Source: an uncultured Candidatus Saccharibacteria bacterium (lineage in GTDB: Bacteria; Patescibacteriota; Minisyncoccia; Phycocordibacterales; Zambryskibacteraceae). Taken from it: 25,230 nt of DNA. Shown here in pieces: positions 8,978 to 22,246 of the stretch. Numbering within the stretch: position 1 is the stretch's first letter; every line of letters begins with the position of its first letter. Below the pieces are notes generated by a model. It was not told where the DNA came from. It saw only the letters and a program-made list of their open reading frames with translations, and searched no databases. Position numbers and translations under genes: made by a program. Location of the stretch: assembly GCA_964405855.1 (NCBI GenBank), contig CAYOPK010000001.1:1-25230 (forward strand), read 5' to 3'.

Positions 8978-9214
8978 CTAAAGACGTTTAATAATCCTAG
9001 CCTTGCCACCATAAGGTTCCATCTCCAAAAGCACCTTGTCACCAACCAGAACTCGGATGCGATGTAGGCGCATTTTCCCAGAAAGATAGGTCAAAATCAC
9101 CTCTCCATTCCCAGCTTCCCCACCTGCTGGTGGATCGAGCTGTACCCGAAACATAATATTCGGGAGAGATTCGACTACAGTACCTGTTCTTTCTAGATCT
9201 TTGTTCTGCGGCAT
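8978..9214 (-). CDS. infA: Translation initiation factor IF-1 with a short in-frame insertion
   Basis: GTVVESLPNIMFRV and LSGKMRLHRIRVLVGDKV. Extra DPPAGGEAG between RVQL and NG. Confidence 0.95.
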   Translation of the reverse strand: MPQNKDLERTGTVVESLPNIMFRVQLDPPAGGEAGNGEVILTYLSGKMRLHRIRVLVGDKVLLEMEPYGGKARIIKRL

Positions 9215-15670: not shown

Positions 15671-16837
15671 TCAAGAAATTATCTGATCCATCACCCCTCC
15701 TCCCAGACAGTTCTCCCCAGCGTAGAAAACGAGTGACTGGCCCATAGACAACCCACGTACCGGCTCTACGAACTCCACCTCTCCTTTGTTCAACACCGAA
15801 TGTTGCACAAACTTGATGGGCAATTTCTCACCACGGTATCGCACGCGCGCAGAGAGATCTGAGCTCGGTGGTTCGCAGAGCCAGTTAACATCCTTTAGCA
15901 AAACTTTTTTTGGCGCCTGTTCCAAAATCTCTTTCTCCTTATCTGAAACAACCAGGCGGTTACCAGCCACGTCCTTTCCCACAATATAAAACGGCCCACT
16001 CAGAGCCCCCTTCTTCTTCACCTCGAAACCTCGACGCTCACCCACTGTGTAGTAAACCAGCCCTCTGTGCTGTCCGATCACTTCCCCTTGGACGTTCACC
16101 ACATCACCTGGAGTGGTTTCGATATAACGAGAGAGAAAATCACTCATCTCGACATCTCCCATGAAGCAAATACCCTGACTATCTTTCTTCTGCGCCACCG
16201 GCAAATTAAATTTATGCGCCAATTCCCTGACCTTTTTCTTTTCCAGCCCGCCGATTGGGAAAAGGATGTGAGCTAGATCTTCCTGCGTCAGAGTCCAGAG
16301 GAAGTAAGTCTGATCCTTATCTTTATCCTTGCCTTCTAAAAGGGTGGGGAAATTTTTAGAAGAAAAATCTGGCCATGCTCCCGAAGGGACATCCGAAGAT
16401 TTTTCGGATAAAGATTTCCCCACCCTGGCATAGTGCCCAGTCGCAATAAAATCCGCCCCATGTTTCTCTGCGAATTTCCAGAAATGTCCGAATTTAATCT
16501 CTCGGTTACAAAGCACATCTGGGTTTGGTGTTCTATTGGCACGGTACTCTGAGAGCATTTTATCCACCACCTCTTCTTTGTACTCCTTCTCCAGATCGAG
16601 GAAAAGAAAAGGAATGTTCAGAGCCAGAGCCACTCGCATAGCGTCACGACGCTCCTCTCGCCAGGTACAAGCGAGCCACTCGGGTTGCCAAGCTCTAATA
16701 AAGACTCCAGTCACGTCATACCCTTCGGCCTGAAGAGTGGCAGCGCTAACCGCAGAATCCACTCCGCCAGAAAGACCGACGAAAACCCTTCGATTCTGAC
16801 TAGCGGAGGTATTTGTTAATTTTTTCTTTGTGTTCAT
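15671..16837 (-). CDS. mnmA: tRNA-specific 2-thiouridylase MnmA with a palindrome-encoded insertion
   Basis: SGGVDS, NPDVLCNREIKFG, ATGHYAR, KDQTYFL, KKDSQGICF, HRGLVYYTVGERRG and GQSLVFY. Confidence 0.97.
   Translation of the reverse strand: MNTKKKLTNTSASQNRRVFVGLSGGVDSAVSAATLQAEGYDVTGVFIRAWQPEWLACTWREERRDAMRVALALNIPFLFLDLEKEYKEEVVDKMLSEYRANRTPNPDVLCNREIKFGHFWKFAEKHGADFIATGHYARVGKSLSEKSSDVPSGAWPDFSSKNFPTLLEGKDKDKDQTYFLWTLTQEDLAHILFPIGGLEKKKVRELAHKFNLPVAQKKDSQGICFMGDVEMSDFLSRYIETTPGDVVNVQGEVIGQHRGLVYYTVGERRGFEVKKKGALSGPFYIVGKDVAGNRLVVSDKEKEILEQAPKKVLLKDVNWLCEPPSSDLSARVRYRGEKLPIKFVQHSVLNKGEVEFVEPVRGLSMGQSLVFYAGENCLGGGVMDQIIS
16341..16426. repeat. 86-nt imperfect palindrome inside mnmA
   Basis: AGGGTGGGGAAAT (16341-16353) / ATTTCCCCACCCT (16414-16426); GAAAAATCT (16362-16370) / AGATTTTTC (16397-16405) in the same register; inner TCCC-GAA-GGGA. 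Confidence 0.92.
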
Positions 16838-20051: not shown

Positions 20052-22226
20052 CTAGACAGAAAGGACTAGATTGACCAGTTTTCCGGGCACATAAACGGCT
20101 CGAGCCACCGACTTATCCACAACCCACTTCCCTACTTCTGGCAGTTCCTGAGCGAGGCGAAGGGCCTCTGCTTCTGGCAGATCAGCTCTTGCATCAAACT
20201 TCCCCCTCATCTTGCCGTTCACCTGGACCACGATAGTCACCTCAGAAGCGACAAGTTTTTTCTCATCGTACTCTGGCCACGACGAAGTGTGAATCGAGGC
20301 GTTATGCCCCAAACTCTGCCATAGCTCCTCAGCCATGTGCGGAGCGAATGGTGCAAGAAGTTGGAGTAAGGTTTCGAAATTTTCTCTAGAAATATTTTCT
20401 TGTTTACTTAATTCATTTACCGAAATCATAAGTGCGGAGACGGCAGTGTTCATCTTCATACTCTCAATCTCTTTCGAAACTTTCTGGATAAGTAGATCCA
20501 GAGAAATGGAAGCGGCGCCTTCTTTTATTTTCTCCTTCAACTTCCAAACTCTCTCGAGAAATCGCCTCACTCCGACTGCCGCATCTGGGTTCCAAGGATA
20601 AGCCCCTACTTCGTTATAAGGACCAATGAAGGCCATATACATGCGGACGGTGTCAGCACCCAAACGATCCACCTCTTTGTCAGGGTCGATTACGTTACCT
20701 CGAGACTTACTCATCTTCTGGCCATCTGGGCCCATGATGAGACCTCTATTCATACGACGAGTATACGGCTCATCTTCATTGACTAAACCGAGGTCAAATA
20801 AAACCTTATGGAAAAATCGACTATAGAGTAAGTGCATCGTCGTGTGCTCGGCTCCACCGGAATAGAATCCAACTGGCATCCAGAGTTTCTGCTTCTCTTT
20901 CGAAGCGAACTCCTCTGAATTCTGTGGGTCGGCATAGCGCAAGAAGTACCAAGAAGAATCCACAAAAGTATCGAGCGTATCTGTTTCCCTCTTCGACATC
21001 TCACCACACTTAGGACATGGGACATTGACCCAGGACTCCACTTTAGCGAGCGGCGACTGACCTTCGTCGTTCGGTAGATAATCATCAGTGTCAGGCAGAA
21101 TGACTTGCAGATCTTTCTCCGGCACCGCCACAGGGCCACAGCCGGCACAATGAATCACTGGTATCGGACAGCCCCAGTAGCGCTGTCTAGAAACCCCCCA
21201 GTCTCGTAGCCTATATTTAAGTGTCTTCGTCCCGAAATCTTCAAACCCAGCTTTCTGATAATCTCTCACCACCGGCAAACCATGTTTCTCGGCAAAAGCC
21301 AGATCCCGCTCATCGTCAGCTGGTACGCCCATGATGGCGCCGGTGCCGTAGTCAGCCAGCACATACTCAGCTTCCCAAACGGGAATCTTTTCTCCGGTAG
21401 CGGGATTGATCACATACTCTCCTGTAAACCGATCCTTCTCACCAGCTTTCACCAAGAAAGTGGCGCCATAGATAGTGTCAGGTCGAGTGGTGAAAACCTT
21501 GACGGAGGTCTGACCTCCGTCAACTTCAAAACTAATCTCTGCTCCTTCAGAACGTCCGATCCAGTTCTTCTGGGACTCTTTGATAGACCTTGGCCATTCG
21601 AGTTTTTCTAGGTCGTCGATAAGACGGTCGGCGTAGTCTGTGATTTTTATATTCCACTGCAACACATTCCGCTTCTCAACTTCTGTTCCACAACGCTCGC
21701 AGTGGTCGGAAACAACCTGCTCGTTGGCGAGAACTGTTTTACAACTCGGGCACCAGTTAGCTGGAGTTTCAGCACGATAAACCAGGCCCTTCTCTAGAAA
21801 CTGAAGGAAGAGCCACTGCGTCCACCGGTAGTACTCTGGCGAAGCTGTCACCACTTCTCGTGACCAGTCGAAAGAAGCTCCCATGGATCGAAGCTGATTT
21901 CTCATGTATTCAATGTTCGAGAAGGTCCACTCGCGGGGATTGATGCCATTCTTTATGGCAGCATTCTCGGCTGGTAAGCCGAAAGCATCGAAGCCCATCG
22001 GATACATGACATTCTTCCCACCCATTCTTCTGTAGCGGACGTAAATGTCAGGCACAGAAAAAGCGTACCAGTGCCCGACATGGAGATTGCCGGAGGGGTA
22101 AGCGAACTCGACCAACACGTATTCGTTCTCTTCCCCTTCCACATTGTCAGGGATGCGGTAAAGACCGCTTTTCTCCCACTCGGCTTGCCACTTCTTCTCT
22201 ATTTCTTTCGGATCGTAATCTTTCAC
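20052..22226 (-). CDS. leuS: Leucine--tRNA ligase, compact form
   Basis: GTG start. YPSGNLHVGH (HIGH), GFDAFGLPAENAA, TTRPDT, DWGVSRQRYWG, DTFVDSSWYF and KMSKS; 724 aa. Confidence 0.97.
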   Translation of the reverse strand: MKDYDPKEIEKKWQAEWEKSGLYRIPDNVEGEENEYVLVEFAYPSGNLHVGHWYAFSVPDIYVRYRRMGGKNVMYPMGFDAFGLPAENAAIKNGINPREWTFSNIEYMRNQLRSMGASFDWSREVVTASPEYYRWTQWLFLQFLEKGLVYRAETPANWCPSCKTVLANEQVVSDHCERCGTEVEKRNVLQWNIKITDYADRLIDDLEKLEWPRSIKESQKNWIGRSEGAEISFEVDGGQTSVKVFTTRPDTIYGATFLVKAGEKDRFTGEYVINPATGEKIPVWEAEYVLADYGTGAIMGVPADDERDLAFAEKHGLPVVRDYQKAGFEDFGTKTLKYRLRDWGVSRQRYWGCPIPVIHCAGCGPVAVPEKDLQVILPDTDDYLPNDEGQSPLAKVESWVNVPCPKCGEMSKRETDTLDTFVDSSWYFLRYADPQNSEEFASKEKQKLWMPVGFYSGGAEHTTMHLLYSRFFHKVLFDLGLVNEDEPYTRRMNRGLIMGPDGQKMSKSRGNVIDPDKEVDRLGADTVRMYMAFIGPYNEVGAYPWNPDAAVGVRRFLERVWKLKEKIKEGAASISLDLLIQKVSKEIESMKMNTAVSALMISVNELSKQENISRENFETLLQLLAPFAPHMAEELWQSLGHNASIHTSSWPEYDEKKLVASEVTIVVQVNGKMRGKFDARADLPEAEALRLAQELPEVGKWVVDKSVARAVYVPGKLVNLVLSV

Positions 22227-22246
22227 GTATTTGTTTTACCTACTAT

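What the first reader, a model, noticed from the sequence alone, without database searches (positions are those of the whole stretch)
16341..16426. 86-nt DNA palindrome translated in frame inside the essential gene mnmA
Seen: a long hairpin with a 13-bp perfect outer stem, a 4-bp and a 9-bp stem in the same register, and an inner TCCC-GAA-GGGA. It spans essentially the whole linker between the conserved ATGHYAR and LLEGKDKDKDQTYF motifs and encodes VGKSLSEKSSDVPSGAWPDFSSKNFPT (27 aa). Known: this linker is about 8-10 aa in E. coli MnmA, and Rickettsia palindromic elements (RPEs) are short palindromic selfish DNAs that insert in frame into protein surface loops. Inference: this is a coding-tolerant palindromic mobile element (RPE/MITE-like) in a CPR lineage, which manufactures new peptide loops in housekeeping proteins. 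It could also act as an mRNA structure or recombination substrate.
Basis: partly seen in the sequence, partly recalled or inferred. Interest (0 to 1): 0.78.

Follow-up and report, generated by a model that had tools for sequence, protein, structure and literature searches.

The report
In-frame hairpin repeat inside mnmA
The 86-base hairpin inside the tRNA-modification gene mnmA is one copy of a small family of hairpin DNA repeats that sit in frame inside housekeeping genes of one genus of ultra-small Parcubacteria, adding floppy surface loops as the Rickettsia palindromic elements do.

Summary
Window 16341-16426 is an 86-nt imperfect palindrome translated in frame inside mnmA.

It is not a one-off. 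Its central ~50 nt is a conserved core: an A/T-rich stem, an invariant TCGG/GGCC internal loop, and an apical stem with a TWC loop. This core recurs in G000's SMC gene and its Pol III delta-like gene. In congeners and metagenome contigs it also recurs in lepA, leuS, rseP, polA and a CAP-domain gene. That makes 8 sites, all in sense orientation.

- **What is conserved:** the nucleotide core, not the peptide. Apical indels shift the frame of the 3' half.
- **Stems:** they covary with Watson-Crick pairs only, including between orthologs.
- **Outer stem:** it is not part of the shared repeat. One arm is host codons and the other is an inverted copy of them.
- **Closest MnmA:** it carries the same hairpin minus exactly 33 nt.
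- **Protein:** the insert is a disordered loop at a beta-hairpin tip.

Other palindrome families in this genome flank RAYT-like Y1 transposase genes and also lie in frame in genes. No such gene was found beside this family.

Verdict: an RPE/REP-like selfish hairpin repeat, of a new family. I found no published description for this lineage. This scan has already noted the same phenomenon on other DNA (68 notes, at least 63 genomes).

The parts
15671..16837 (-). mnmA (tRNA 2-thiouridine synthase), 388 aa, the host gene
   Evidence: ORF. Pfam PF03054, PF20259 and PF20258. Matches PDB MnmA chains at E about 1e-85.
16341..16426 (.). The full 86-nt imperfect palindrome (the finding)
   Evidence: 13-bp perfect stem, 60-nt interior.
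16359..16408 (-). 50-nt conserved core shared by all family copies: A/T-rich stem, TCGG/GGCC internal loop, apical stem with TWC loop
   Evidence: Alignment A1. Pair counts. Covariance model R1 hits at E 1e-16.
16371..16374 (-). Invariant internal-loop strand GGCC (3' side on the sense strand)
   Evidence: Invariant columns 35-38 of A1. Also present in the more diverged copies, except G013 which reads GACC.
16393..16396 (-). Internal-loop strand TCGG (5' side on the sense strand)
   Evidence: Invariant columns 13-16 of A1. Diverged copies read TCGT, TCAG or TCTG.
16414..16426 (-). Outer-stem arm that is upstream in the gene (codons R138-V-G-K141), host-derived
   Evidence: Relatives with short linkers read AGG GTG (GAA GAC) GGG AAA at the same place.
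16341..16353 (-). Outer-stem arm that is downstream in the gene (codons N162-F-P-T-L166): an exact inverted copy of the upstream host arm
   Evidence: Perfect 13-bp complement. No counterpart in short-linker relatives. Same pattern at the Pol III delta-like site.
16343..16414 (-). 72 nt (24 codons, S142-T165) that are extra relative to the minimal linker of congeners
   Evidence: Linker comparison. 2HMA alignment. AF2 pLDDT below 50 for residues 144-160.
16359..16391 (-). 33-nt (11-codon) segment missing from the closest known mnmA (P0002 / L145). The boundary is ambiguous by 1 nt.
   Evidence: After removing it the two hairpins are 37/47 identical, and P0002 has a perfect 21-bp stem.

Best explanation
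The hairpin is one copy of a family of small palindromic repeat elements: selfish or at least dispersed DNA that behaves like the Rickettsia palindromic elements and intragenic REPs. The family has spread among surface loops and domain linkers of housekeeping genes in one Parcubacteria genus.

The shared unit is a ~50-nt imperfect hairpin. Its sequence-specific parts are the TCGG/GGCC internal loop, the flanking ATG/CAT and TCT/AGA bases, and the TWC apical loop.

After a copy arrives at a site, the hairpin is lengthened by foldback (template-switch) synthesis. This copies adjacent host codons in inverted orientation and makes a site-specific outer stem. The same kind of hairpin-templated copying then keeps the two arms complementary while their sequence drifts.

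Because each surviving insertion is a multiple of three and has no stop codon, it is translated as a disordered, mostly acidic and hydrophilic loop that the protein tolerates. Selection for tolerated peptides explains why one frame is used.

Shown: the family, its in-frame sense location at 8 gene sites, the covariation, the host origin of one outer arm, the indel variant, and the disordered loop. Inferred: that copies arise by transposition or templated copying, the foldback mechanism, and any role for the genome's RAYT-like Y1 transposases.
For: - **Other copies in G000.** They lie in SMC and in a Pol III delta C-domain gene, in frame and in the same orientation.
- **Copies elsewhere.** They occur in lepA and an orthologous delta-like gene on metagenome contigs. 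They also occur in leuS, rseP, polA, a CAP-domain gene, SMC and the delta-like gene of congeners.
- **Empty sites.** G000's own lepA, leuS, polA and CAP gene lack the core. Many congeners lack it in mnmA and in the delta-like gene.
- **Core covariation.** 90/90 cells are Watson-Crick paired. 7 of 15 pairs change on both sides and none on one side only. 0 of 500 shuffles reach this, and the slid controls collapse.
- **Peptide not conserved.** Apical indels turn AWPDF into KHGQTSL or GHGQSF.
- **Outer arm templated from host codons**.
- **Orthologous hairpins.** There are 18 compensatory double substitutions among 62 differing positions and no G.T intermediates.
- **Closest MnmA.** It differs by an exact 33-nt indel inside the hairpin.
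- **Hot spot.** The MnmA linker needs at least 28 state changes on a 106-tip tree, with several unrelated palindrome families.
- **Structure.** The insert has pLDDT below 50 at a beta-hairpin tip.
- **Context.** G000 has 112 perfect hairpins against 3-5 in shuffles. It has six Y1_Tnp genes. Palindrome families B and C flank two of those genes and also lie in frame in other genes. In G011 the mnmA-site palindrome belongs to the family that flanks a Y1_Tnp gene.
Against: - No copy of this family lies next to any of the six Y1 genes of G000.
- G042 is 96% complete and has three copies but no Y1_Tnp match.
- Copy number is low: 3 per genome, and about 14 known in all.
- No presence/absence polymorphism within a population could be examined, because no sequencing run holds the locus well. 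Movement has therefore not been seen.
- All 8 sites are in sense orientation, although one antisense frame would give an equally benign acidic peptide. Peptide tolerance alone does not explain this.
- The strictly conserved internal loop, and pairing maintained in place, would also fit a functional structured element.
Confidence: 0.72

Rival explanations
1. It is a functional structured element of the mRNA: a protein-binding or processing site, or a translation-pausing hairpin placed between folding units. It is kept by selection in the sense strand of several housekeeping genes.
For: All 8 sites are in sense orientation. The internal loop is invariant and the stems covary. Pairing is maintained between orthologs. 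The sites are domain linkers.
Against: - Presence is patchy among close relatives, and the genes work without it.
- The changed stem pairs are all Watson-Crick with no G.U states, which is unusual for RNA stems.
- The antisense strand folds at least as well in 12 of 14 copies.
- The closest MnmA lost the conserved loop yet kept a perfect stem.
- There is no Rfam match.
- Unrelated palindromes occupy the same sites in other species.
Confidence: 0.12
2. It is a purely local product: an inverted duplication made once at this site by template switching or foldback repair of a break, with no relation to other loci.
For: One outer arm is an inverted copy of adjacent host codons. Foldback-templated inverted insertions of 5-34 bp at breaks are documented in yeast (PMC11724301).
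Against: The central 50 nt cannot be derived from mnmA flanks. It is 87% identical on average across unrelated genes and is found by a covariance model at E down to 1e-17. Local foldback explains the outer stem only.
Confidence: 0.05
3. It is a DNA-level host site, for example a binding site of a chromosome-organising or repair protein that recognises the hairpin or cruciform and happens to be tolerated inside genes.
For: The covariation is Watson-Crick only, and both strands fold. The core contains a conserved short palindrome TGGCCA.
Against: Only 3 copies per genome, at non-conserved positions. Patchy among species. By reading, the core does not resemble the parS consensus as I recall it. 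No partner protein is identified.
Confidence: 0.06
4. The conserved thing is the peptide (SSDVPxEAWPDF), a short linear motif added to several proteins. On this view the palindromic DNA is incidental.
For: The first three copies encode nearly the same peptide in the same frame.
Against: In leuS, rseP, polA and CAP copies the 3' half is read in another frame while the nucleotides are kept. Compensatory stem changes alter the residues, for example S to P with D to G, and V-P-S-E to E-A-S-P. A peptide motif does not explain the covarying stems.
Confidence: 0.03

Closest known systems
Rickettsia palindromic elements (RPE; Ogata et al. 2000 Science, 2002 Genome Res, as summarised in PMC10969869)
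   Same: Hairpin-forming repeats dispersed in a reduced genome. They are inserted in frame into unrelated housekeeping genes, read through as extra peptide segments, and compatible with the protein fold.
   Different: The core is shorter (~50 nt, against ~150 bp as summarised in PMC10969869) and the copy number is lower. The host phylum is different. Only the centre is conserved between copies, while the outer stem is built from host codons. The encoded peptide is conserved only in its first half. No sequence relation to RPEs was tested.
REP / REPIN elements with their RAYT (TnpA_REP) Y1 transposases (PMC3116915, PMC3337134, PMC8266576, listed)
   Same: Short imperfect hairpins. The same genomes hold RAYT-like Y1 genes: PF01797, and NF047646 below its cut-off. 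Those genes are flanked by their own palindromes, and copies of those palindromes lie elsewhere in the genome.
   Different: For this family no cognate Y1 gene was found, and one carrier genome has none. The copies are intragenic rather than extragenic. There is no GTAG or CGTC tag in the conserved columns. There are few copies. These genomes hold 3-8 Y1 paralogs where one RAYT per genome is described as typical (abstract of PMC5581495).
Quasipalindrome template-switch correction and foldback-templated inverted insertions (Ripley-type model, from my own knowledge; yeast foldback insertions, PMC11724301)
   Same: It explains an inverted copy of adjacent sequence next to a hairpin. It also explains arms that stay perfectly complementary through Watson-Crick-only paired changes.
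   Different: It is known as a mutational mechanism in model organisms. It has not been described as a persistent process that shapes coding sequence across species. It was not demonstrated here.
Repetitive hairpin-forming elements and GC clusters of mitochondrial genomes (sponge RHEs, PMC2800124, listed)
   Same: Small hairpin repeats that invade compact genomes repeatedly.
   Different: They occur in organelles, are mostly intergenic, and have no known link to Y1 transposases. The comparison rests on the abstract only.

Membership tests
Rickettsia-type protein-coding palindromic elements (RPE-like behaviour) | Repeated DNA able to form a stable hairpin | tested here: met
   z -5.2 (RNA) and -6.4 (DNA). 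All copies fold.
Rickettsia-type protein-coding palindromic elements (RPE-like behaviour) | Several dispersed copies inserted in frame in unrelated protein-coding genes | tested here: met
   8 gene sites: mnmA, smc, Pol III delta-like, lepA, leuS, rseP, polA, CAP.
Rickettsia-type protein-coding palindromic elements (RPE-like behaviour) | Each family encodes a conserved peptide | tested here: inconclusive
   The first half, (K/N)SSD, is read in the same frame at all sites. The second half differs where apical indels shift the frame.
Rickettsia-type protein-coding palindromic elements (RPE-like behaviour) | The insert lies where the protein fold tolerates it (surface) | tested here: met
   The insert is at the turn of a beta-hairpin relative to 2HMA. 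AF2 pLDDT is below 50 for residues 144-160 in a confident model. Tested for MnmA only.
Rickettsia-type protein-coding palindromic elements (RPE-like behaviour) | Sequence homology to RPE-1 to RPE-10 | not tested
   No RPE sequences were at hand. Given the different size and phylum I claim an analogue, not a member.
REP/REPIN-RAYT system | A cognate RAYT gene flanked by the same hairpin | tested here: not met
   No family copy lies near the six Y1 genes of G000. G042 has copies but no PF01797 match. The feature is met for other families: B at C25, C at C6 and the G011 family.
REP/REPIN-RAYT system | High copy number and extragenic location | tested here: not met
   3 copies in G000, all intragenic.
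REP/REPIN-RAYT system | Conserved GTAG or CGTC tetranucleotide at one end (PMC3733652 abstract) | tested here: not met
   Neither tag is among the conserved columns of A1.
MITE | Terminal inverted repeats conserved between copies | tested here: not met
   The outer arms differ completely between sites and derive from host codons.
MITE | Direct target-site duplication | tested here: not met
   Reading the borders of the copies showed no direct repeats. At the delta-like site, 8 host codons were replaced rather than duplicated.
Known RNA families (Rfam 15) | A match at or near a family's gathering score | tested here: not met
   The best hit is 20 bits against a gathering score of 75.

The most novel reading that the evidence does not exclude
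The hairpins are self-propagating and self-extending palindromes that need no dedicated transposase. A short structured core is copied to new sites. It then recruits foldback synthesis that writes the reverse complement of neighbouring host codons into the gene, and continual hairpin-templated correction keeps the arms paired. This would be a steady, mechanistically defined source of new protein-loop sequence in CPR bacteria. The invariant TCGG/GGCC loop would be the recognition site of a still unknown strand-specific factor.
Probability: 0.25. Interest if true: 0.75.

Novelty: new variant of a known kind. Interest (0 to 1): 0.55.

Why it matters
It shows that in-frame selfish palindromes, known mainly from Rickettsia, also shape housekeeping proteins in the ultra-small CPR bacteria.

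This case also gives unusually clean sequence evidence on how such hairpins evolve once they are inside a gene:
- one arm is host codons and the other is their inverted copy;
- the arms change together by Watson-Crick-only double substitutions, even when that changes amino acids;
- in-frame indels reshape the hairpin between sister species.

That makes testable the question of how coding sequence can be generated and maintained by a DNA-structure-driven process rather than by selection on the protein.

There is a practical consequence too. These inserts inflate linker lengths and can confuse alignments, gene trees and domain annotation in CPR genomes.

Tried and rejected
- **Rfam scan of the region:** nothing near a gathering score.
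- **Core pattern in one genome per species (GTDB representatives):** 8 hits, all chance matches with no shared flanks and no hairpin.
- **Exact or near-exact pattern in 40 relatives:** only G000 matched. Diverged copies needed the covariance model.
- **Order-wide model search of 150 genomes:** only two weak hits, both in one genome.
- **Sequencing runs:** the best holder has 9% of the sampled words and none is RNA, so I did not lay reads.
- **Cognate Y1 transposase next to a family copy:** none found.
- **Peptide-motif reading:** rejected because of the frame-shifted copies.
- **Stop-codon explanation of the uniform orientation:** rejected, because nearly all six frames are open.
- **Sense versus antisense fold energies:** no preference for the mRNA strand.
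- **My first idea that the host-derived arm is always the upstream one:** not general. At rseP the downstream arm carries the host codons.
- **Technical failures:** a first fuzzy-regex census and a first regex scan of SMC sites timed out and were redone more simply.

Full report
**1. Observation**

Window 16341-16426 is an 86-nt imperfect palindrome. It has a 13-bp perfect outer stem, then 4-bp and 9-bp stems in register, a 4x4 internal loop, and an apical 7-bp stem with a 3-nt loop. It folds far better than shuffled sequence: RNA z -5.2, DNA z -6.4, with 0 of 200 shuffles as good.

It lies inside a 388-aa minus-strand ORF that carries all three MnmA domains. It is read in frame as the stated peptide.

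**2. It is a family, not a one-off**

BLAST and a model search of the window's own 454-kb genome (68 contigs, about 90% complete) find two more copies of the central part. One is in SMC (C6) and one is in a small Pol III delta C-domain gene downstream of polA (C41). Both are in frame and in sense orientation.

A metagenome scan added two more. One is an orthologous copy in the delta-like gene of a related organism. The other is in lepA, and G000's own lepA is empty at that site.

I built a covariance model from six copies (A1, R1). It found further, more diverged copies in five or six of the other 36 genomes of the genus. They lie in leuS (two orthologs), rseP (two orthologs), polA, a CAP-domain gene, SMC and the delta-like gene.

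Several more distant MnmA proteins in the large protein database carry family-like peptides at the mnmA site. For one of them the DNA confirms the core.

Outside the genus the family was not found:
- 150 sampled genomes of the order gave only two weak hits, both in one genome.
- Hits in the representative genomes of other species were chance matches.

Names that sources give to neighbouring homologs place the lineage in Patescibacteria/Parcubacteria, near Zambryskibacteria.

**3. What is conserved**

Across the six best copies every one of the 90 stem cells is a Watson-Crick pair. Seven of 15 pairs show changes on both sides and none shows a one-sided change. The internal-loop strands TCGG and GGCC, the ATG/CAT and TCT/AGA stem ends and the TWC loop do not vary. 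Shuffled and slid controls fall far short.

The peptide is not the conserved entity. In the leuS, rseP, polA and CAP copies a small indel in the apical stem shifts the frame, so AWPDF becomes KHGQTSL or GHGQSF while the nucleotides stay the same. The compensatory changes themselves alter residues.

Nearly all six frames of the core are open. The frame in use gives an acidic, hydrophilic peptide, and most alternatives give basic or hydrophobic ones. One antisense frame would be just as benign yet is never seen. The uniform sense orientation at 8 of 8 sites therefore needs a strand-specific cause.

**4. The outer stem is local**

The outer arms have no similarity between sites.

At the delta-like site, orthologs without the core read GCC GAG GAA GAG GAT CTC followed by eight codons (IGPKARAA). 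G000 keeps GCC GAG GAA GAT CTC as one arm. It has replaced those eight codons with the core plus an exact inverted copy of that arm.

In mnmA the upstream arm (AGG GTG GGG AAA) matches the host codons of short-linker relatives. The downstream arm is its inverted copy.

The upstream arm also carries the host codons at leuS, and apparently at SMC, where the match is weaker. At rseP it is the downstream arm that carries them. So one arm is host sequence and the other was templated from it, which is the expected product of foldback or template-switch synthesis at a hairpin. That mechanism is my inference.

**5. Maintenance and turnover in place**

I compared four orthologous hairpin pairs: mnmA, SMC, rseP and leuS. 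They differ at 62 positions. Of these, 36 form 18 compensatory double substitutions, including G-C to C-G swaps. None of the changed pairs sits at a G.T intermediate. My rough estimate is that independent change would give only one or two such pairs.

The closest known MnmA (79% identical; Logan contig L145) has a perfect 21-bp hairpin at the same site. It equals ours minus exactly 33 nt, and the remainder is 37/47 identical. It still contains the 5' half of the core. That is best read as an in-frame deletion inside the hairpin.

The hairpins are therefore reshaped by in-frame indels, and their arms are kept paired in a Watson-Crick-only manner. This fits DNA-templated correction better than selection on an RNA helix. 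The antisense strand also folds at least as well as the mRNA strand in 12 of 14 copies.

**6. The site is a hot spot**

Among 120 MnmA homologs, 49 have a linker of 11-12 residues by my measure. The rest carry inserts that bring it up to 44 residues, and these belong to several unrelated families. Those I examined at the DNA level in congeners are different long palindromes.

On a tree of 106 of these proteins, with the linker masked, at least 28 changes between the short and inserted states are needed. One family appears repeatedly as the sister of a short-linker protein at short distance.

The SMC, delta-like and rseP sites likewise hold other palindromes in other species.

**7. Effect on the protein**

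Relative to solved MnmA (2HMA), the extra residues fall at the turn of a beta-hairpin after the GHYAR motif. An AlphaFold2 model is confident overall (mean pLDDT 83, pTM 0.81). Residues 144-160 are below pLDDT 50, as a coil between strands 138-140 and 165-167.

**8. Genomic context and the question of the mobilising enzyme**

G000 has 112 perfect hairpins with stems of at least 11 bp, against 3-5 in shuffled sequence. Most look like terminators, but about 25 lie deep inside long ORFs.

G000 has six Y1_Tnp genes, all with the HUH motif and the catalytic tyrosine region. Their only curated-family match is REP-associated tyrosine transposase, below the curated cut-off.

- **Family B.** The C25 gene has a 19-nt perfect palindrome upstream, inside and downstream. 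Copies of this family lie in frame in rseP and in another ORF.
- **Family C.** The C6 gene shows the same arrangement with a different palindrome. Copies of that palindrome lie in four other places, two of them in frame in long ORFs.
- **G011.** In this congener the palindrome at the mnmA site belongs to the family that flanks a Y1_Tnp gene.

So REP/RAYT-type palindromes demonstrably sit in frame in genes here. For the family studied here, however, no flanked Y1 gene was found. G042, which is 96% complete, has three copies and no Y1_Tnp match. I give a Y1 enzyme about 35-40% as the agent of spread. A transposase-free, repair-templated spread is the alternative.

**9. Comparison with what is known**

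The behaviour matches the Rickettsia palindromic elements as summarised in PMC10969869. It overlaps with REP/REPIN-RAYT biology.

It differs in three ways:
- only the centre is conserved, and the outer arms are templated from the host;
- copy number is low;
- the arms are visibly maintained in place.

I found no paper in the searchable library that links CPR/Patescibacteria with such elements.

This scan has noted the same general phenomenon many times on other DNA: 68 notes in at least 63 genomes. These include RAYT genes bracketed by their own hairpins, and one case of border hairpins copied from host codons. I used those notes as leads only. The corresponding claims were tested here on this genome.

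**10. Verdict**

This is a new family of a known kind of element, with features of interest for how palindromes create and maintain coding sequence. Whether the copies still move, and by what enzyme, is not shown.

Noticed in passing
window 21499-21523 (inside leuS, minus-strand ORF 20055-22235): A perfect 12-bp palindrome with a 1-nt loop (TTGACGGAGGTC t GACCTCCGTCAA) is translated in frame as VDGGQTSVK. It resembles, with paired differences, the palindrome next to the Y1 transposase gene on contig C3 (3582-3606) and one on C27 (6326-6352).
   Followed up: partly
window 9110-9136 (IF-1 gene, minus strand): IF-1 reads FRVQLDPPAGGEAGNGEVIL, with about 8 extra residues. These include a small 5-bp hairpin (CCACC-TGCT-GGTGG on the plus strand), as another first-reader note says. 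I did not search for a family.
   Followed up: partly
G000 contigs C6:12247-13110, C25:5445-6122, C3:3613-4362, C15:4722-5600, C28:7-774, C10:8176-8886: There are six RAYT-like Y1 transposase paralogs in a 454-kb genome. At least three have a cognate perfect palindrome upstream or downstream, and two also have a copy inside their own coding sequence. Congener G006 has eight matches.
   Followed up: partly
L134:1040-3052 (G042 leuS): This leucyl-tRNA synthetase fragment carries a NUDIX domain (PF00293, E 3e-12) between the editing domain and the catalytic core.
   Followed up: no
L071 (metagenome lepA), residues about 65-88: The same lepA that carries the family copy has a second insertion of about 16 residues in the G domain (EHRAQSTKSLGSGSWASGSSDSKF) relative to G000's lepA. 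I did not check it for a hairpin.
   Followed up: no
MnmA homologs P0007, P0008, P0009, P0015, P0018, P0039 and others: A second, widespread insert family at the mnmA site (peptides such as RKNALSSSAE...RDVFS) is scattered over the MnmA tree, often next to short-linker sisters. This suggests repeated insertion at one site, or exchange of gene segments.
   Followed up: partly
SMC head linker of congeners (L086, L090, L095, L098 and others): Peptides such as KRSDLEDLERSDLEE come from doublets of the AAGGTCGGACCTT-type palindrome (family B). The same family occurs in the delta-like gene of several congeners.
   Followed up: partly
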